Shown here: positions 10,212 through 45,520 of the stretch, piece after piece | Position numbering within the stretch: position 1 is the stretch's first letter | How the letters are laid out: every line of letters starts with the position of its first letter | From: a virus | Lineage: Duplodnaviria; Heunggongvirae; Uroviricota; Caudoviricetes | Virus record (IMG/VR): IMGVR_UViG_2877251553_000008 | Strand: one strand, 5' to 3' | Length of the DNA: 52,923 bases | Made by a program: the position numbers and the translations under genes | The notes under the pieces: generated by a model | Told to the model about the DNA's origin: nothing | Seen by the model: only the letters and a program-made list of their open reading frames with translations | Database searches by the model: none

Positions 10212-13200
10212 TCAGCTAATCGTGATGCCTGCAGTGGCTTTCTTCATCACCACAACCAGCAAATCGCTGATACTTGCTGTGGGATACCAGTTATTTACCA
10301 GCCATGCTGACACCGAAAACTCCAGTGTCATGTGACCGTGACCGGCAGGCATATCAATAACACCACTGTAAATCAGCGTATTATCCAGCGCGGTACGGTT
10401 ATAAATTTCAGCACCGTTTTTCCGCACTATCAGACGGCATGAGGAGTAAATATCAGTATGCTCTTTCTCATGTTTAGCGCCGCTGAATGCCACCGCCGGA
10501 ATAACAATCTGCCGGTCAAACGGCTGATCGTCATAAACCCTGACGGTAATGGTTCCTGATGGCCACCGCTCCGGTGCACGGGAGTCCCGGGGAAAGCTTT
10601 GCCCACTGTTTTAACGAGATCGCCTTCAATCTGGTTCGCGGACAATTTTCCCAGAACCCGACAGTTCTCGTTAATCGTGACGTTGTTGAGCGTCCCGGAG
10701 TTCGCATTCACGTTACCGCTGATATCGGCATTTTTCGCCGTCAGCCGCCCGTCCGGTGTCAGGGAAAATGCCGGAGGATTACCGCCGCTGGTAATGGTGG
10801 GAGCCGTCAGATATTTCAGGAACACTTCATTCATAAATATCTGATCGCCCTGACCAACAAACATCGGCTTTGTGTTGCCATTCGCAGGATTAATCATCGC
10901 AATCCTGTCTGCCGCCAGCAGCACCTGACTCTGCATTCCTGCTGGCGTATTCTCAATACCGGCATCGATACCCGCAATATAAAGGCGTCCGTCCTGCATC
11001 TGCTGCAGTTTCACGGCCCACATGCTGTTCAGGTTATTATTTGTATCAACCTGAACTTTCTGTATCTGCTGGATTGCCGCACTCTGATTTTCCAGTTTTT
11101 TATTGACGGTCTGCGTGATTTCATTGCTGACATTCGTAATGGACGTCCTGATTTCAGCCAGGTCCGGCGCAAGCTGACCGTTATCAATCTGCGTCCACAG
11201 CTCCTGGGCCAGATGTGTTTTCCCGATTTCTCCTTTGAAGAAATCCAGGTAACCTTCCGCATCATCGCTCGCCCGACCGACAGCCTCCACGAATGCCGAT
11301 TTGCCAACAGTATTCACACTGCGGATATAAAAATAATAATCATGGCCCGGTTTGATATTGATACTGGCAGCTATCCAGTACAGCGCCGAGCCAAGATAGC
11401 GGGCTGCGGTTTCAACCTGCCTGATATCCGCAATCCGCTTTTCCGAGAACCAGAACTCAAACTGTACCGTCGGGTAATAAACGGCAAGATGCGGCGTGGC
11501 GGTTATCTGAAAATAGCCCGGCGTCAGTTCAATGGTGGCGGGTTTTGCTGGCGCGTTAATCCGGAAGGTGGTGGTGGCCGGTTCGCCCTGCTGGCCATAA
11601 CTGTTAATTGCCCTGACTGTCAGGGTGTATTCCCCGAGCGGCAGACCACTGAAACGATGCTCTGTATCCGCAGTGATAGCGGTGGTCACCAGACGGCTGT
11701 CTTCTCCGCTTCCGCTGGTCAGTCGCAGACTGAAGCGCCCCCCTTCACCACCCGCGGCGTGTCCCATTTCGCCTGTGCCAGATACTGGCCGTCAGCTGCG
11801 CTCACCTCCACCGTCAGGTGCTGCACTGCCGGTGGGATGACGCTGTTCAGGGAGCCTGACTGCGGCTCAAAGCGGGCACCGTTATCCACGATGGCTTCTT
11901 TTTCCGGTACGTGCTGCACCGCCGTGATGGCAAAGGTGCCGTCCGTGTTTTCCCGGACGGAGACACAGCGGAACAGGCGACGGCGCAGTGACGGCAGGGA
12001 GAGTCCCCACACCCCGTATGTCTCCACACCATCAGGCAGGGTACTGACCTGTATCCGGTCCGGCGCGGGGTGTGCGGTGATGTCCACACTCACCGGCTTA
12101 CCGCTGCCGTTAATCAGGTTCACCGCCGATGTACCTGTCTCCGGCAGGGTAACCTCACGGTCCAGCGTCAGGGTGCGGGTGGCAGCATCAATGGACAGGA
12201 CACGTCCGCCGGTCATAGTCCCGGCATAGTCGTTATCACAGATTTCAATAATGTCACCCGGTGTGTGACGCAGCCCCTGTGACCCGAGCGTGAAGTCCAC
12301 CGTCTGCGTTTCCAGCAGTCCGGTCTTTATCACCCACAGACCTGCACGGTGAGCCTGACCGCGGCAGGTACAGCCAAACGCATCCATCTTCAGCAGGTTG
12401 CGTCCGTAGCGCAGTATGGCTTCCGGGTCTTCCACCAGTTCCGTGGAGGTCTGCCAGCCGTTCTGCGGGTCGGTGTAATTCACCTCCACCGCCGTGTGCC
12501 GGTCCTTCAGGGCACTGAAGCTGTAGCGGAATCCCACGCCGTTATCATCCACCACCACATCGCTGTTGGTGTACGGCCACACCACATCCGACGGGCGGTC
12601 CTGAACGAACGTCAGCGTCTGACCGTTCCATACCGGCATACAGCGCATCGCAGAGCAGAAATCACTGAGAACGTCCCACGCCTTACGCTGTTGTGCCAGG
12701 TACGCATTAAAGGTCATCCGCGGCTCGGTCCCCCGAAACCATCCGGGACCGTCTGGTCGCAGTACTGCCCGATGGCATACAGCGCCCACTTGTCCACATC
12801 CGCCGCCCCAGACGTTTTCCCATGCCGTAGCGCGGGTGAGTCAGCATGTCCCACAGGCACCAGGCCGGGTTGTTGCTGTATGCCGGTTTCAGACTGCCGT
12901 CCCAGATACCACTGTACGTGCGTTTTTCCGGGTCATAGTTTGACGGCACCTGGATGATGCGACCGCGGATATGGTAGTTCACCGTCATCTGCTGGCCGCC
13001 GAACTGCTCCGCATCCACCTGCAGCCCCACAATGGCCGTGTTCGGGTAGCACTGTTTCACATCGATGATTTCGGTGTATGACGACCACAGCGTCTTATTC
13101 TGCAGCTGGTCCGTGGTGCTGTCCGCCGTCTCCCTGACCATCCGGATGTTAAAGGGCCGGGGAGGCAGATTATCCAGAATCACCGAGGCCAGGAACTGTG

Positions 13201-13681
13201 AGGTGGTCTTGCCGTTAATGGTGACGTCCTTTTCCGTCACCCAGCGGCCATTACGCTGTAACTGAATCAGAATCCGGACAGAGGAAGGATTACGGTCGCC
13301 CTTTGACGTGGTCTGCACCAGTGACTGCACCCCGAAGGTAACCCGCAGGCGGTCAATGTTCGCGGACGTAATGGTGCGCGTCACCGGTTTTGCCTTCGTC
13401 ACTTCCACGCCCAGTCCGGTTTCAGAGCCGGAGGACTCAAAGCCTTCCGGTGGTGTCTGCTCCTGCTCCCCGGCGCGCCAGACCGCCGTCACACCGTGTA
13501 TCACGGGATTGCCGTCCGTGTCCGTCAGTGGGGTTTTGTTCACCAGAATACTCTGCAGTCCCTTCACCGGACCTTCTATCGGTCCCTCACCAATCGCATC
13601 AATCACACTCATCATCTGCGTGGATTTGAGATTATCCTTCGCCTCACGAGGAGTGTGTGCCTTACCGCCACCTTTTCCCAT
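10212..13681 (-). pseudogene. J: tail tip / host-specificity protein J, at least three frameshifts
   Basis: Four consecutive ORF pieces (12707..13681, 11719..12789, 10430..11767, 10212..10493) each match successive parts of lambda J (MGKG..HTPREAKDNLKST...; ...TEPRMTFNAYLAQQRKAWDV...; ...[16 protein letters not shown]...). Confidence 0.85.
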
Positions 13682-13784
13682 ACAGCCTTCCCCTGAATAA
13701 ATTAACCGCCACTTGCCATTCCGTACAGAAGTCGGATATCCTTCGCCCGAAAAGCATGAAACACATTTCTGCCATGCTAAAGAG

Positions 13785-13814
13785 AAACCCCGGTATCAGC
13801 AGATACCGGGGTTT
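13785..13814. other. strong 13-bp perfect stem-loop in the I-J insert
   Basis: AAACCCCGGTATC-agca-GATACCGGGGTTT, T-rich on both sides. Confidence 0.6.
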
Positions 13815-13920
13815 TCTTTCATGCCCACCGATAATCCTGTTGGTTAAAACCGGTAATGGCATAAAAATTCTGAATATCTTCACATTTTCACACACTGACT
13901 GTGGCGCTTATAATTTCGCT

Positions 13921-14018
13921 GCGTTAGTGTTTTTTTGCCCGAGTAACAAAAACAACTCCTTAACATTGATCTTCATTTGTCTGTCCCCGCAGCTCCGCGA
14001 TCACTGCGGGATTTTTTT
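13921..14018 (+). ncRNA. candidate small RNA (own promoter and intrinsic terminator), antisense to the tail operon
   Basis: Perfect -10 TATAAT at 13909-13914; ~95 nt with no ATG; terminator hairpin CCCGCAG-N11-CTGCGGG plus T7 at 13986-14018; CA-rich stretch AACAAAAACAACTCC. Confidence 0.35.
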
Positions 14019-14023
14019 ATGTT

Positions 14024-14704
14024 TTATCCCTGTCGCCCGATAACCACGACCTTTCCGCCCCCGCCTTCATCACGGGTGCTGATGTCCTGGGATATACGGC
14101 GGGAGCCAACCAGCATTTCCCCGTAAGGCACCGGCATCGGGTTCCCCTGGGCAATCATGTTATCCAGCGAGGAAAAGTACGTGTTCTGTCTGCCGTTATC
14201 CGTTGCGCGGTAATCCGGTGTTTTTGCCTTCGGGGCCAGCATCTGGGCCACACCGCCCAGAATCATGCTGGCTCCAAGTGAAAACAGCATCGTGGTGGCA
14301 GAAAAACCACCGGCTGCCAGGGCTGAACCCCATAACGCCATTGATGCCCCGGCAGTGAAGAAAGAGCCCACGATGGCTGCCGCCCCCAACACAATCTGCA
14401 GTCCACCCTTTCCGGCCCCGGCCAGTCGCGGCACAATATGGATGACCGTTCCCTCACCCAGCTGTTCGTGAAGACGGGCGTACACCGCCTCCGGTGCCGT
14501 GTCATAACCGGCAATACGTATCTGGTACCAGCCTTCGTTCATCTGACGGCGAAAGCCCGGCACCTGTAACGACAGCGCCCGGATGGCTTCCGCTGCCGTG
14601 TTCACATACAGGCTGAGGCGGCGGCCAAATCGTTGTAAATCCCCGTGAAGGCAGATGCGTGCCAGTGGCGGTGACGCCAGACAGAATGCGTTCGTCGTTG
14701 CCAT
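14024..14704 (-). CDS. I: tail tip assembly protein I
   Basis: 226-aa ORF MATTNAFCLASPPLARICLHGDLQRFGRR... matches lambda I. Confidence 0.85.
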   Translation of the reverse strand: MATTNAFCLASPPLARICLHGDLQRFGRRLSLYVNTAAEAIRALSLQVPGFRRQMNEGWYQIRIAGYDTAPEAVYARLHEQLGEGTVIHIVPRLAGAGKGGLQIVLGAAAIVGSFFTAGASMALWGSALAAGGFSATTMLFSLGASMILGGVAQMLAPKAKTPDYRATDNGRQNTYFSSLDNMIAQGNPMPVPYGEMLVGSRRISQDISTRDEGGGGKVVVIGRQG

Positions 14705-15353: not shown

Positions 15354-16052
15354 TTACTGCGAAAGTTTATTAATGGAAAGGAAACCGCCAAAATTGCCGA
15401 CATTCCTGCGCAGTTCACACCCGCGCATGCACTTGCTGCATCTGTCCTTACGGATATCCGTGGTGGGGTTGTCGAACTCATCCGCCACCGCAGGACCGTT
15501 ATACCCGCATTCATCTCCCCGGTAATCCCACATACAGGTGTTCGCCAGCATGATGCGACCGGGAAACAGCGCCCCATCCGTCTCGGTCGGTGTAGCCAGC
15601 ACAAACGAGGCCGTCATGGCTGTCAGCTGCGACATCTGCTCCACCACCCAGCGGTCACTCAGCTCCTGCTCCGGGTCCGCCTCCGGATTGCCCGCAACGA
15701 AATTCACCGCATCCAGAAAACGGGCATACACCCGGCGGCGGACCACCGTGGCCCCCACCAGACTCTGCAGGTCTTCCGCCATCCCGGTGACCAGACCGAA
15801 CAGATTGGACACCGTCAGCGACGGTCTGGCACTGCTGCCCCGACCGTTCATCTCAAAGCCGCTGCCGTCAATCGGGTATGCCTCATACTTACGCCCCTGC
15901 CAGGTGACCGGCTCCCCTTTTTCATTCAGCTCATTACAGAAAAAATAACGTTCTCCACCGACCTCTGTCAGATCGATTTCCCAGAGCACCACGCTGGCCG
16001 ACTGCTCCGCACGGGTGCATTCATTCAGTGTTTCCTGCCGGATATCCTGCAT
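15354..16052 (-). CDS. L: tail tip assembly protein L
   Basis: 232-aa ORF MQDIRQETLNECTRAEQSASVVLWEIDLTEVGGERYFFCNE... matches lambda L. Confidence 0.9.
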   Translation of the reverse strand: MQDIRQETLNECTRAEQSASVVLWEIDLTEVGGERYFFCNELNEKGEPVTWQGRKYEAYPIDGSGFEMNGRGSSARPSLTVSNLFGLVTGMAEDLQSLVGATVVRRRVYARFLDAVNFVAGNPEADPEQELSDRWVVEQMSQLTAMTASFVLATPTETDGALFPGRIMLANTCMWDYRGDECGYNGPAVADEFDNPTTDIRKDRCSKCMRGCELRRNVGNFGGFLSINKLSQ

Positions 16053-35465: not shown

Positions 35466-35658
35466 AAATCCTCCCGGCCTGGATAATATTGTGAGTAAAA
35501 TGAGGAGCGGGCTGAAGTCCGGAAGTTACAGGACAATGGCAGAAGATAGACAACAGCCCGCAATATGAAAAAGGCCGCGCTATTGCGCAGAGTGATTACT
35601 GTCGGATATTATTCACCAGCTGAAATATTACTTCACGTTTTGTTGTTTATTCCTTGCC

Positions 35659-35687
35659 GCCCGCGTCTCCCAGCGCGGGCTTTTTTT
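35659..35687 (+). terminator. intrinsic terminator (plus strand)
   Basis: GCCCGCG-tctcccag-CGCGGGC followed by TTTTTTT. Confidence 0.6.
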
Positions 35688-35689
35688 GT

Positions 35690-35717
35690 CCATAAGAAAG
35701 CCCCTCCGGAGAGGGGC
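35690..35717 (-). terminator. intrinsic terminator (minus strand), downstream of the tRNA cluster
   Basis: Minus-strand hairpin GCCCCTC-tccg-GAGGGGC followed by TTTCTTAT. Confidence 0.5.
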
Positions 35718-35965
35718 TGGAGAGTGGCGCTATGTGCCATTGCATGGTGCCGGGTGCCTCCCGGTGAGTTCAGTATCAGCACCTGAACCCGCACAGAAAG
35801 GATAAGGGTCGGTGACAAAACACCAGTTGCTGATTGCCCTCCGCACAGGGGATTCACCATGCCAGTTTCTTTTAACAAACTCCCCGCAAACCAGACAACA
35901 GTCAACCGCCTGAATTGTGAGACATTTAAAAAAAGCCCGCAAAAGCGAGCCAGGGAAAATAAGTG

Positions 35966-36042
35966 TGGCGCGTTCTACTGTATTCGAACCAGTGACCGAT
36001 TGCTTAGAAGGCAATTGCTCTGTCCGGCTGAGCTAACAACGC
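35966..36042 (-). tRNA. argN: tRNA-Arg (anticodon UCU)
   Basis: Hand-folded cloverleaf: acceptor GCGTTGT, D-arm GCTC..GAGC, anticodon arm ATTGC-CTTCTAA-GCAAT, T-loop TTCGAAT, encoded CCA; one T-stem mismatch. Confidence 0.6.
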
Positions 36043-36058
36043 AGGATACAGATAATGA

Positions 36059-36132
36059 ACCGCCTTCGGGGACCCGAACTCCGCGCAACCAGCTTCGAAG
36101 GCTGGCGCTCTTTCCTGATGAGCTAATGGCGG
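36059..36132 (-). tRNA. tRNA-Arg-like (anticodon UCG by hand fold), possibly degenerate
   Basis: Acceptor CCGCCAT/AAGGCGG, D-arm GCTC..GAGC, anticodon arm CCAGC-CTTCGAA-GCTGG, T-loop TTCGGGT (G at position 58 is unusual), no encoded CCA. Confidence 0.4.
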
Positions 36133-36139
36133 TATGTGA

Positions 36140-36215
36140 TGGTGGCCCTTGCTGGATTTGAACCAGCGACCTGGCGATTATGAGTCGCTCGCTCTCACCA
36201 CTGAGCTAAAGGGCC
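36140..36215 (-). tRNA. ileZ: tRNA with CAU anticodon (Ile2 ileZ-type or Met)
   Basis: Perfect 7-bp acceptor stem GGCCCTT/AAGGGCC, D-arm, anticodon loop CTCATAA, T-arm GCTGG-TTCAAAT-CCAGC, encoded CCA. Confidence 0.75.
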
Positions 36216-44672: not shown

Positions 44673-45520
44673 GGGCGAACCTCCTTGTCAGAACCATTCA
44701 GCCTGGAATCAACAAGTGCAGCGCCAAAAACAGCATCACCAACACGGTCGTACAGTTTGCTAGCCAGCGGAGATTCAATGGCCTTAAGCATTGGATAAAG
44801 CTGGCTTGTCCAGATTTGATGGATTTCACGCAAATGCAGGTATACGCCTCTGGCGTTTCGTGCGACAGCTGACATATCAACCGCGTCAGCACCAGATAAA
44901 TTCTTCTCCATCTGGTTAAAGGCGTTGATGTATGCCTCTTTGAACCGGGCTGCACGTTTGCCAGTAAAGCCCATAGCAAGGAACGCGAAGCCATCACGGG
45001 TGATTTGATAGCAAGGTAGTTTGCGGCCTGTGCAATCGGTGTAATCACTCACCGAAAAATTGCGGGCAGTGAATGATGCGGAGCATTCAAGCGTGCGGAT
45101 CTTTTTCAGTACATCGTCATGACGCTTGGAGAAGAAGTTGGCAACAGCCAGGGATGAAGTAACAGCCTGACCATCAACGATGGCAATTTCAGGTTGAGTG
45201 AGGGTTGGGATCGTAGCCATGATGGCAGCCTCCGTTGACTGTGGAAAACTTCCACCACCGGAGCTGCGAAACTCACTGGTGGCAGACTGAACAGGGTTCG
45301 CAGTACCGGCGTCAACGGAGACCGGCGAGCCTTTCGGCTCCCCTGCCCAGCCCACCATAATTCTGGCGTGCGTGAGCGCGGACGATAAAAAAGACGCTGG
45401 CGCGTCATATATCGCCGTTGACAATTCCGGGCTGCGACCCCCGGCACCCACTTTATAAGGTGCAGAGACAGTGTAACGTCCCGAAATTGCAGAATCAATA
45501 TTTGGTCTTGAAATGATCAT
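44669..45520 (-). CDS. Rha-family phage regulatory protein (functional start probably ATG at 45220)
   Basis: Rha domain IVDGQAVTSSLAVANFFSKRHDDVLKKIRTLEC... begins ~100 codons into the ORF; internal ATG at 45220 has a GGAGG RBS. Confidence 0.6.
   Translation of the reverse strand: MIISRPNIDSAISGRYTVSAPYKVGAGGRSPELSTAIYDAPASFLSSALTHARIMVGWAGEPKGSPVSVDAGTANPVQSATSEFRSSGGGSFPQSTEAAIMATIPTLTQPEIAIVDGQAVTSSLAVANFFSKRHDDVLKKIRTLECSASFTARNFSVSDYTDCTGRKLPCYQITRDGFAFLAMGFTGKRAARFKEAYINAFNQMEKNLSGADAVDMSAVARNARGVYLHLREIHQIWTSQLYPMLKAIESPLASKLYDRVGDAVFGAALVDSRLNGSDKEVRP

What the first reader, a model, noticed from the sequence alone, without database searches (positions are those of the whole stretch)
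13682..14023. ~340-bp insert between tail genes I and J carrying a small-RNA-like promoter-terminator unit
Lambda has only a short I-J spacer. This insert has a perfect TATAAT (13909-13914), about 95 nt without any ATG, and a strong terminator (13986-14018), all antisense to the tail operon, plus a 13-bp perfect hairpin (13785-13814). The putative transcript has a CA-rich stretch (AACAAAAACAACTCC) of the sort sRNA sponges use. It resembles prophage anti-sRNAs reported in EHEC, but I cannot confirm identity from memory.
Basis: partly seen in the sequence, partly recalled or inferred. Interest (0 to 1): 0.7.

Follow-up and report, generated by a model that had tools for sequence, protein, structure and literature searches.

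The report
Known prophage small RNA PasB

Summary
The promoter-terminator unit is the gene for PasB, found in EPEC E2348/69 by RIL-seq and northern blot (Pearl Mizrahi 2021). The published northern probe matches window 13991-14013 exactly. The 83-nt RNA maps to 13936-14018 (+) with one substitution, at position 27. In E2348/69 it lies in the same place, between I and J, antisense to the tail operon.

PasB needs Hfq for stability. It had 37 RIL-seq partners: 30 CDS/5'UTR and no sRNA. It is not AgvB or AsxR: those lie at the PR' moron site, Rfam gives no match here, and predicted pairing with GcvB is no better than for shuffled sequences. The sponge idea is therefore unsupported.

Modest additions from this work:
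- PasB is one allele of a larger I-J spacer family that includes EcOnc22/23/24 of O157 Sakai (Tree 2014). The family occurs in about a third of complete E. coli genomes.
- A CRP-like palindrome upstream of the promoter is invariant across the family.
- The 13-bp hairpin belongs to a separate, non-coding 160-bp module that is nearly invariant. It is probably a two-way terminator, and its role is unproven.

Verdict: already known, low interest.

The parts
13682..14023 (.). I-J intergenic spacer, 342 bp (60 bp in lambda)
   Evidence: ORF coordinates. Lambda annotation. Nothing is annotated in this spacer in RefSeq genomes.
13936..14018 (+). PasB small RNA, 83 nt, using the ends mapped in E2348/69. 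It has one substitution, at window 13962 (A instead of C), which is RNA position 27.
   Evidence: Published coordinates and probe. Exact probe match at 13991-14013. Alignment to NC_011601.1. Zhu et al. place the PasB versus PasB-2 difference at position 27.
13887..13914 (+). Sigma-70 promoter-like site, TTCACA-16-TATAAT (11/12). It predicts a start near G13921, 15 nt upstream of the published 5' end.
   Evidence: Promoter scan. The same site is found in E2348/69. The -10 hexamer is conserved across alleles while the -35 is variable.
13866..13887 (+). CRP-like palindrome AATTCTGAATATCTTCACATTT. Both half-sites are invariant across the family and the spacing to the RNA start region is fixed.
   Evidence: It matches 14 of 16 consensus positions and is the only match in the window (0.04 expected). 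Across 17 promoter variants the half-sites never change, the N6 varies, and the distance to GCGTTA is always 33 nt. CRP binding is not tested.
13921..13935 (+). Possible 5' leader of a 98-nt primary transcript (GCGUUA plus a U-run). It is absent from the published 83-nt form.
   Evidence: GCGTTA and the T-run are conserved in all alleles. A U-run/A-run 5' hairpin is possible (I2) but is not supported beyond shuffles.
13942..13956 (+). Inferred to be an Hfq distal-face binding motif.
   Evidence: Every allele has 2-5 A-R-N triplets at this position although the sequences differ. Tree 2014 shows that Hfq binds A-R-N repeats (abstract).
13956..13974 (+). Conserved single-stranded core: CUCCUUA (anti-Shine-Dalgarno-like, 13956-13962) and the invariant AUCUUC (13969-13974). 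This is the candidate seed.
   Evidence: Invariant columns in alignments A2 and A3. The region is unpaired in the fold and in the consensus structure. Zhu et al. propose a seed just upstream of the terminator.
13986..14018 (+). Intrinsic terminator of PasB: a 7-bp stem, an 11-nt loop, then A and U7. It ends 5 nt from the I stop codon.
   Evidence: The stem is invariant in 16 of 16 alleles while the loop varies in length and sequence.
13700..13862 (.). Left module: a non-coding segment specific to this spacer type. It is absent from E2348/69, Sakai and lambda.
   Evidence: Present in 1446 genomes and >=99% identical in 1441 records, never annotated, and found only in this context. Not shared with E2348/69. 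Natural 1-nt and 47-nt indel variants exist, so it is not coding. It combines freely with different PasB alleles.
13785..13814 (.). 13-bp perfect hairpin with an A-tract on one side and a T-tract on the other. It looks like a terminator in both directions.
   Evidence: Fold z-scores are -6.0 (+ strand) and -5.0 (- strand). Hairpins in the same position, with a T-tract on the tail-operon strand, occur in the E2348/69 and Sakai spacers and in lambda. The scan's strict T-count rule does not call the window or lambda hairpins terminators.
14024..14704 (-). Tail assembly gene I (226 aa), the upstream flank of the spacer
   Evidence: 479 relatives were found in viral contigs.
10215..13681 (-). Tail tip gene J, the downstream flank. 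In this window it is split over four reading-frame segments.
   Evidence: tblastn with the intact J protein of strain E2865. ORF list.

Best explanation
Window 13936-14018 (+) is the gene for PasB. Its promoter region spans 13866-13914. PasB is an Hfq-dependent, trans-acting, base-pairing small RNA carried by lambda-like prophages in the spacer between tail genes I and J, antisense to the late tail operon.

Shown, in EPEC E2348/69 and by homologues in O157 Sakai:
- An RNA of about 83-85 nt is made.
- It is strongly depleted without Hfq.
- On Hfq it is ligated almost always as the second RNA of chimeras, to 37 partners that are mostly coding regions and 5'UTRs.

Inferred:
- The 3' terminator hairpin, the U7 tail and the U-rich stretch before it bind the proximal face of Hfq.
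- The run of A-R-N triplets binds the distal face.
- The conserved unpaired core (CUCCUUA ... AUCUUC) pairs with target mRNAs near ribosome-binding sites or inside coding regions and changes their translation or stability.
- The gene is transcribed in the lysogen from its own strong promoter, independently of the silent late operon.

The rest of the insert, the left module with the 13-bp hairpin, is a separate non-coding element. It is most likely a two-way intrinsic terminator. It occupies the position that operon-strand terminator hairpins occupy in other I-J spacers.
For: Identity:
- The reverse complement of the PasB northern probe matches 13991-14013 exactly.
- 82 of 83 nt are identical to E2348CN_0006, and the promoter is identical.
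- The location in E2348/69 is the same, between tail assembly protein I and gpJ, on the opposite strand.

Expression and Hfq dependence, from the literature:
- PasB was confirmed by northern blot, and its stability depends on Hfq.
- In the hfq mutant the log2 fold change is -6.8 (padj 2e-40) in one condition and -2.4 in the other.
- RIL-seq found 37 partners: 30 CDS/5'UTR, 4 3'UTR/IGR and 0 sRNA. The fraction of fragments with PasB as RNA2 is 1.0 and 0.99.

Homologues:
- EcOnc22/23/24 in Sakai Sp15, Sp14 and Sp11 give a northern band of about 85 nt that is destabilised in the hfq mutant.
- Their probe maps to the PasB-like RNA body in those I-J spacers.

Anatomy:
- Promoter match of 11/12 and a terminator.
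- The body is unpaired apart from the terminator.
- The family conservation pattern fits an sRNA: the promoter -10, the terminator stem and the core are invariant, while the 5' part and the loop vary.

Spread: 4386 copies in 1796 of 5426 complete E. coli genomes, and 128 phage records including phages propagated on K-12 or E. coli C.
Against: - There are no expression data for the strain this window comes from.
- The consensus promoter predicts a start near 13921, 15 nt upstream of the published 5' end (13936). That end was estimated only from read coverage and band size. Processing or a second start would have to be assumed.
- No regulatory outcome on any target has been shown. Both papers say the function is not elucidated.
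- No common target motif was reported for PasB: it is absent from Table S7.
- The terminator stem never varies, so there is no covariation support.
- The terminator role of the 13-bp hairpin rests on its shape and on positional analogy only.
Confidence: 0.9

Rival explanations
1. The RNA would be an anti-sRNA or sponge of the AgvB/AsxR kind, using its CA-rich stretch to bind the GU-rich seed of GcvB or another core sRNA and block it.
For: - The stretch AACAAAAACAAC looks superficially like GcvB target sites.
- AgvB also carries an A-R-N motif and is prophage-encoded.
Against: - RIL-seq lists 0 sRNA partners for PasB. GcvB's single sRNA-class partner count fits the gcvB-sroC chimeras seen in Table S3.
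- No gcvB-pasB row was found in the stored tables. That search is weak, because the tables were cut when stored and tab matching is uncertain.
- Duplex energy with GcvB is -21.3 kcal/mol for the PasB body and -9.4 for the CA stretch. Of shuffled sequences, 76-80% do at least as well. The AgvB 5' end scores -19.4, which only 2% of shuffles reach.
- The CA content is not conserved in other alleles (AAGAAUAAU, AAUAAU).
- There is no Rfam AgvB or AsxR match, and the locus and length are different.
Confidence: 0.04
2. PasB acts mainly in cis. It is perfectly complementary to the I-J intercistronic part of the late tail mRNA and is transcribed head-on against it. It could therefore trigger RNase III cleavage or transcriptional interference and so set the level of J (host-range protein) relative to the upstream tail genes.
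For: - The gene lies antisense inside the tail operon in every member.
- Its position is fixed 5 nt from the I stop codon.
- It always occurs together with an operon-strand terminator-like hairpin just upstream of J.
Against: - The RNA does not overlap the I coding region or the J ribosome-binding site, which is 150-250 nt away.
- RIL-seq shows many trans partners, over 98% of them core-genome encoded by fragment count.
- In this window J is frameshifted but PasB is intact. This fits a host-directed role in the lysogen rather than a role in tail assembly.
- No data exist on late mRNA processing at this site.
Confidence: 0.1
3. The insert encodes a small protein, on either strand, rather than RNAs.
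For: - Mechanical ORFs cross the region: 128 aa on the + strand and 77 aa on the - strand.
- Some phage records annotate 33-50 aa hypothetical proteins antisense to PasB.
Against: - There is no ATG in the sRNA.
- The ORFs run through two strong hairpins.
- Natural variants of the left module carry 1-nt and 47-nt indels.
- The sRNA alleles differ by indels that are not multiples of three.
- The annotated ORFs differ from phage to phage and none is conserved.
Confidence: 0.01
4. The left module (13700-13862) is a second small-RNA gene. It would either be a + strand RNA of about 72 nt from the weak promoter-like site TTGCCA-18-TATCCT, ending at the hairpin, or a 3'-end fragment of non-antiterminated tail-operon transcripts ending at the same hairpin.
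For: - A promoter-like site (9/12) lies at 13713-13742.
- The predicted RNA 13745-13822 has a 5' stem-loop, an A-rich linker and a hairpin followed by UUUUCUUU, with z = -6.0.
- The module is nearly invariant in 1446 genomes.
Against: - The -10 hexamer is poor (TATCCT).
- No promoter-like site was found on the - strand.
- No transcript data exist, because E2348/69 lacks the module.
- Near-identity of the copies may simply reflect recent spread.
- One natural variant has deleted the hairpin (L064).
- Rfam gives only sub-threshold matches.
Confidence: 0.15

Closest known systems
PasB (E2348CN_0006) of EPEC O127:H6 E2348/69 prophage PP6 (Pearl Mizrahi et al. 2021, PMC8550237; Zhu, Shabalina and Storz 2026 preprint)
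   Same: It is the same gene. 82 of 83 nt are identical, the promoter is identical, the probe matches exactly, and the position and strand between I and J are the same. The one difference is at position 27, where Zhu et al. place the PasB versus PasB-2 difference.
   Different: The window's spacer is 342 bp rather than 240 bp. The J-proximal 95 bp of E2348/69, with its CAGGCACC hairpin, is replaced by a different 180-bp segment with the 13-bp hairpin. Expression was not measured for this strain.
EcOnc22/23/24 of EHEC O157:H7 Sakai prophages Sp15, Sp14 and Sp11 (Tree et al. 2014, PMC4104026, Table S2)
   Same: They share the I-J spacer position and strand, the invariant terminator stem, the AUCUUC core, the GC(G/A)UUA start region and the CRP-like site. 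The size is about 85 nt and the RNA is destabilised in the hfq mutant.
   Different: The region is only about 75-80% identical over 141 nt. The 5' part differs (CCUGAAAAAUAACUCCAUAACG), and no consensus promoter is called in Sakai. Neither Pearl Mizrahi's Table S6 nor the main text of Zhu et al. ('EcOnc' occurs 0 times) links PasB to EcOnc22-24.
AgvB and AsxR anti-sRNAs (Rfam RF02702, RF02703)
   Same: They are prophage-encoded, Hfq-binding, short, end in an intrinsic terminator, and have a variable 5' part containing A-R-N motifs.
   Different: They lie in the moron site downstream of Q/PR' as convergent pairs, are 51-60 nt long and share a 42-nt 3' region that is unrelated to PasB. They act on the sRNAs GcvB and FnrS. 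PasB gives no Rfam match, shows no GcvB complementarity above chance and has no sRNA partners.
Phage lambda I-J spacer
   Same: It has the same flanking genes. A GC-rich hairpin with a T-rich tail on the operon strand lies just upstream of J (AAACCGCC-TGCG-GGCGGTTT). The last ~30 nt before the J start codon resemble the window's (GGCGGTT..ATTTAT..GG.G.AGG).
   Different: It is only 60 bp long and has no promoter-terminator unit on the opposite strand.

Membership tests
PasB sRNA (prophage I-J spacer family) | Sequence identity to the published 83-nt PasB, including the northern probe target | tested here: met
   The probe matches exactly at 13991-14013, and 82 of 83 nt are identical.
PasB sRNA (prophage I-J spacer family) | Located between tail assembly gene I and tail tip gene J of a lambdoid prophage, on the strand opposite the tail operon | tested here: met
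   Window coordinates. E2348/69 annotation. Six phages and three Sakai prophages show the same arrangement.
PasB sRNA (prophage I-J spacer family) | Own promoter and an intrinsic terminator with a U-tract of at least 6 | tested here: met
   TTCACA-16-TATAAT and a 7-bp stem followed by U7. Both are identical in E2348/69.
PasB sRNA (prophage I-J spacer family) | Expressed as an RNA of about 83 nt whose level depends on Hfq | not testable with these tools
   Shown for E2348/69 and for the Sakai homologues. No data exist for this strain.
AgvB/AsxR anti-sRNAs | Match to the Rfam covariance models RF02702 or RF02703 (the conserved ~42-nt 3' region) | tested here: not met
   No match at the gathering score or at E<=10. 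Positive control: AgvB scored 96.5 bits in Sakai.
AgvB/AsxR anti-sRNAs | Located in the moron insertion site downstream of Q/PR', in a convergent sRNA pair | tested here: not met
   The paper's description does not fit a position inside the tail operon. The window's own PR' site holds STnc100 and an EcOnc08-like RNA instead.
AgvB/AsxR anti-sRNAs | 5' region complementary to the seed of a core sRNA (GcvB R1 for AgvB) | tested here: not met
   Duplex energies are no better than for shuffled sequences (fraction 0.74-0.80), against 0.007-0.02 for AgvB. RIL-seq lists 0 sRNA partners.
AgvB/AsxR anti-sRNAs | Length of 51-60 nt | tested here: not met
   83 nt as published, or 98 nt as predicted from the promoter.
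Canonical Hfq-dependent trans-acting sRNA | Hfq-binding module: a terminator hairpin preceded by a U-rich stretch and followed by poly(U) | tested here: met
   The sequence UUUGUCUGU is followed by the hairpin and U7. The module definition is the one cited in Tree 2014 (Ishikawa 2012).
Canonical Hfq-dependent trans-acting sRNA | Regulates mRNAs through a conserved single-stranded seed | not testable with these tools
   There are 30 CDS/5'UTR partners on Hfq and a conserved unpaired core. No target has been validated, and no common motif was reported for PasB.
CRP-dependent promoter | CRP consensus site at a productive distance from the transcription start (-41.5, -61.5 and so on) | tested here: inconclusive
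   The site matches 14 of 16 positions, and its half-sites and spacing are invariant across the family. Its centre is at -44.5 from the start predicted by TATAAT, or about -60.5 from the published 5' end. The true start is unknown, and binding is not testable here.

The most novel reading that the evidence does not exclude
The I-J spacer of lambdoid prophages would be a dedicated sRNA cassette site with three properties.

1. It holds one large, allelically diversified family, PasB plus EcOnc22-24 and other types. These share a promoter frame, core and terminator but carry different 5' target-recognition parts. They reassort independently of the flanking tail genes and of the J-proximal module.
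2. Its transcription is gated by cAMP-CRP through the family-invariant palindrome at 13866-13887.
3. Because the cassette is always paired with a terminator-like hairpin on the tail-operon strand, it also affects read-through into J.

Point 1 is essentially shown here, and the papers I read do not state it. Points 2 and 3 are untested.
Probability: 0.2. Interest if true: 0.45.

Novelty: already known. Interest (0 to 1): 0.22.

Why it matters
PasB is one of the most connected accessory-genome sRNAs on Hfq in EPEC, and its function is still unknown. This window shows it in its most common genomic form.

Recognising the locus matters for annotation. The RNA is not in Rfam and is not annotated in RefSeq, so it will keep being 'rediscovered'.

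The analysis offers three leads for people working on PasB:
- It belongs with EcOnc22-24 in a family present in about a third of complete E. coli genomes, with up to 8 copies per genome. This contradicts the published picture of PasB as the least diverse Pas sRNA.
- A CRP-like site is conserved at a fixed distance from the RNA start region. This suggests how PasB is regulated.
- A terminator-like hairpin always separates the cassette from J.

Tried and rejected
- Rfam at gathering and permissive thresholds found nothing at the locus. The weak matches (SSRC34_2 at E 0.03, STnc310, CopA) only reflect the hairpin shape.
- The AgvB/AsxR identity was rejected on locus, length, Rfam result and pairing.
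- My first look at EcOnc10/11/12 as possible I-J sRNAs was wrong. EcOnc10 lies near the terminase and lysis genes.
- Taken at face value, the EcOnc22-24 coordinates fall on the J-proximal hairpin. Calibration with AgvB showed that the old Sakai coordinates are about 140 nt lower than in NC_002695.2. The probe sequence then settled the location.
- The 5' hairpin between the U-run and the A-run is 84% paired across alleles, but this is no better than shuffles.
- The terminator stem shows no covariation because it is invariant.
- The CAGGCACC hairpin of other spacers has one compensatory pair, which is only weak support (63 of 500 shuffles do as well).
- Searching paper texts for the hairpin and terminator sequences found nothing.
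- The left module has no diverged relatives in E. coli genomes or phages, so no comparative test is possible.
- A scan of the window for PasB pairing sites timed out and was dropped. An earlier duplex script failed twice.
- I could not extract the list of PasB RIL-seq targets.
- The species-representative genome scan used too loose a pattern. Most of its 37 hits are generic terminators in unrelated phyla. Only the two E. albertii contigs, plus two probably contaminating or mis-binned contigs, are true relatives.
Full report
**Observation.**
The tail operon runs on the minus strand. Gene I is 14024-14704 and the first J ORF starts at 13681, so the spacer is 13682-14023, 342 bp. In phage lambda, I ends at 15444 and J starts at 15505, a 60-bp spacer.

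- TTCACA-16-TATAAT lies at 13887-13914 and matches 11 of 12 consensus positions.
- A 7-bp GC-rich stem (13986-13992 with 14004-14010) is followed by A and T7.
- There is no ATG between 13915 and 14018.
- A 13-bp perfect hairpin lies at 13785-13797 and 13802-13814.
- The stretch AACAAAAACAACTCC lies at 13945-13959.

**Identity.**
Rfam has no family for this RNA at either the gathering or a permissive threshold. The insert is nevertheless common. Megablast finds it in 1612 of 5426 complete E. coli genomes, always between 'tail assembly protein' and 'gpJ', and never annotated.

A literature search led to the Pas sRNAs of EPEC E2348/69. Table S6 of Pearl Mizrahi et al. 2021 gives these details for PasB:
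- locus tag E2348CN_0006;
- coordinates NC_011601.1, minus strand, 1466343 to 1466261, 83 nt;
- prophage PP6;
- northern probe AATCCCGCAGTGATCGCGGAGCT.

The reverse complement of that probe matches window 13991-14013 exactly, with 0 matches expected by chance. In E2348/69 the RNA lies between the tail assembly gene (ending at 1466255) and gpJ (starting at 1466496), on the opposite strand. From 13860 to 14045 the window is identical to E2348/69 apart from two bases upstream of the promoter and one base inside the RNA. That base is window 13962, A instead of C, at RNA position 27. Zhu et al. 2026 place the difference between PasB and their variant PasB-2 at this position. PasB therefore corresponds to window 13936-14018 (+).

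**What is known about how it works.**
- PasB was confirmed by northern blot and its stability depends on Hfq.
- In the hfq mutant its level falls by log2 6.8 (padj 2e-40) in DMEM and by 2.4 in overnight static LB (conditions).
- In RIL-seq it ranks 15th by number of partners. It has 37 unique partners: 30 CDS/5'UTR, 4 3'UTR/IGR and 0 sRNA.
- It is the second RNA in 100% and 98.7% of chimeric fragments, which is the signature of a bona fide sRNA.
- There are 258 fragments in DMEM and 1820 in LB.
- Both papers state that the function is not yet elucidated.

The RNA's anatomy fits a canonical Hfq-dependent base-pairing RNA.
- The fold is unstructured apart from the terminator.
- The terminator is preceded by a U-rich stretch and followed by U7.
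- There are five consecutive A-R-N triplets at 13942-13956.
- The unpaired core contains CUCCUUA, which by my own knowledge equals the anti-Shine-Dalgarno end of 16S rRNA, and AUCUUC.

**The sponge idea.**
- AgvB and AsxR are 51-60 nt RNAs in the moron site downstream of PR'.
- Rfam finds AgvB in Sakai at 96.5 bits but finds nothing here.
- I took GcvB from E2348/69 and computed duplex energies.
  - The AgvB 5' end gives -19.4 kcal/mol on GcvB 66-85, which only 2% of shuffles reach.
  - The PasB body gives -21.3 kcal/mol, which 76% of shuffles equal or beat.
  - The CA stretch alone gives -9.4 kcal/mol, which 80% of shuffles equal or beat.
- RIL-seq shows no sRNA partner for PasB.
- In other alleles the stretch reads AAGAAUAAU or AAUAAU, so A-R-N triplets are conserved and CA content is not.

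The anti-sRNA reading is not supported.

**A larger family.**
A more sensitive blastn search with the 141-nt promoter-plus-RNA segment finds 4386 places in 1796 of 5426 genomes, up to 8 per genome. In 801 records the best match is only 60-80% identical. It also finds 128 phage records, mostly Stx1a, Stx2a and Stx2c phages.

I fetched spacers from six phages, three Sakai prophages and 80 viral contigs. These gave 20 distinct alleles.

Invariant or conserved across alleles (alignments):
- the block CTTCACATTTT;
- a TATAAT-like -10;
- GC(G/A)TTA followed by a T-run;
- ATCTTC;
- the terminator stem, followed by at least six T.

The 15-25 nt after the T-run and the terminator loop differ sharply between allele types. 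The consensus structure is the terminator alone, with no covariation because the stem never varies.

Among 78 contigs with nearly identical I genes there are 18 different RNA bodies and two different J-proximal modules, in mixed combinations. The cassette therefore reassorts.

**Link to EcOnc22/23/24.**
Tree et al. 2014 list EcOnc22/23/24 in Sakai Sp15, Sp14 and Sp11, with a northern band of about 85 nt that is destabilised in the hfq mutant.
- Their published coordinates fall inside the I-J spacers of NC_002695.2.
- They appear about 140 nt too low, and AgvB shows the same offset.
- Their probe shares an exact 23-mer with the PasB-like RNA body in all three spacers.

PasB and EcOnc22-24 are therefore one family. 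Table S6 of the 2021 paper notes EHEC homologues for PasA and PasD but not for PasB. The 2026 preprint does not mention EcOnc at all and describes PasB as the least diverse Pas sRNA.

In a one-genome-per-species scan, true relatives appeared only in Escherichia albertii and in two probably contaminating or mis-binned contigs.

**Promoter and 5' end.**
The 11/12 promoter predicts a start near G13921, giving a 98-nt RNA. The published 5' end, estimated from coverage and band size, is 13936.

Across alleles the -35 hexamer called by the scan is not conserved. What is invariant is a palindrome just upstream, AATTCTGAATATCTTCACATTT at 13866-13887.
- It matches 14 of 16 positions of the CRP consensus AAATGTGA-N6-TCACATTT (consensus from my own knowledge).
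- It is the only match in the 52.9-kb window, where 0.04 are expected.
- In all 17 promoter variants both half-sites are unchanged and the central six bases vary.
- The 33 nt between the site and GCGTTA vary in sequence but never in length.

The centre of the site is at -44.5 from the predicted start, or about -60.5 from G13937. The latter would fit a class I arrangement with the conserved TANNNT (TAGTGT, 13925-13930) as the -10 element.

PasB is higher in stationary LB than in DMEM, the reverse of Spf. This is compatible with CRP activation but equally with a stationary-phase effect. It is a lead, not a finding.

**The rest of the insert.**
The J-proximal part (13700-13862) is not shared with E2348/69.
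- It occurs in 1446 genomes, is at least 99% identical in 1441 records, occurs only in this context and is never annotated.
- Natural variants with 1-nt indels and a 47-nt deletion that removes the hairpin show that it is not coding.
- The 13-bp hairpin has an A-tract on one side and a T-tract on the other, so it looks like a terminator in both directions. It folds very stably on both strands, with z = -6.0 and -5.0.

The common 240-bp spacers have a different hairpin at the same place (CAGGCACC..GGTGCCTG).
- The scan calls it a terminator on the tail-operon strand in E2348/69 and Sakai.
- It shows one compensatory C:G to U:A change, which is only weak support.

Lambda has its own hairpin there. 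The scan's strict T-count rule does not call the window or lambda hairpins terminators.

My reading is that a hairpin or terminator in front of J is a general feature of these operons, read through by Q-modified polymerase (established lambda biology, from my own knowledge). The window carries a different version of it. A second sRNA ending at this hairpin cannot be excluded.

**Verdict.**
It is the published PasB, not a new element and not an anti-sRNA of the AgvB/AsxR type.

The additions from this work are modest and mostly untested:
- the link to EcOnc22-24;
- the real diversity and prevalence of the family;
- the conserved CRP-like site;
- the separate hairpin module.

Noticed in passing
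window 10215-13681 (-): Tail tip gene J is split over four reading-frame segments compared with the intact 1131-aa J of strain E2865. Residues 1-292 are in frame -3, 304-649 in frame -1, 648-1022 in frame -3 and 1002-1131 in frame -2. The prophage is probably defective, or the sequence carries indel errors. PasB is intact.
   Followed up: partly
window 35579-35687 (+): The reverse complement of the EcOnc08/21/42 northern probe of Tree 2014 matches 35579-35613 exactly. A + strand terminator follows at about 35659-35687, convergent with STnc100. This looks like an EcOnc08-like sRNA, also reported as the E2348C_1409.E2348C_1408.IGR sRNA. It is not in Rfam and occupies the site where AgvB sits in Sakai.
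   Followed up: partly
window 35688-36215 (-) and 45275-45463 (-): Other Rfam matches at the gathering score are STnc100 (35688-35891), three tRNAs (35969-36215), C4 antisense RNA (45275-45362) and isrK (45387-45463).
   Followed up: no
window 13866-13887 (+): A CRP-like palindrome lies upstream of the PasB promoter. Its half-sites and its distance to the RNA start region are invariant in all 17 promoter variants examined, while the sequence in between varies.
   Followed up: partly
L011 1295-1330 (Sakai Sp15); L009 (phage 1717): The Sakai EcOnc22 and phage 1717 alleles keep the CRP-like site and a -10-like hexamer (AATAAT, TATCAT). They have no recognisable -35, and the scan calls no promoter in Sakai. 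EcOnc22 is nevertheless detected by northern blot. This fits an activator-dependent promoter.
   Followed up: no
L098 1690-1870 (Escherichia albertii NBRC 107761): This is a PasB-family allele whose upstream region, including the CRP-like site and the -10, is replaced by unrelated sequence containing a GC-rich hairpin. It may be a promoter swap or a dead copy.
   Followed up: no
L114 (Collinsella sp. MAG) and L127 (Parendozoicomonas haliclonae, 460-bp contig): These contigs carry both the PasB terminator pattern and the TCTGA-N6-TCACATTT motif. They are probably E. coli prophage DNA that was mis-binned or contaminates these assemblies.
   Followed up: no
NC_002695.2 compared with the coordinates in Tree 2014 Table S2: The Sakai coordinates published in 2014 are about 137-146 nt lower than in the current RefSeq version around 1.94 Mb, judged from AgvB. 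EcOnc positions therefore cannot be read directly onto NC_002695.2.
   Followed up: yes
L064 (IMG/VR contig 2671180417_000014): This is a natural variant of the window-type spacer. It lacks the 13-bp hairpin through a 47-nt deletion between short direct repeats (CATTTCT / TTTTCT).
   Followed up: no
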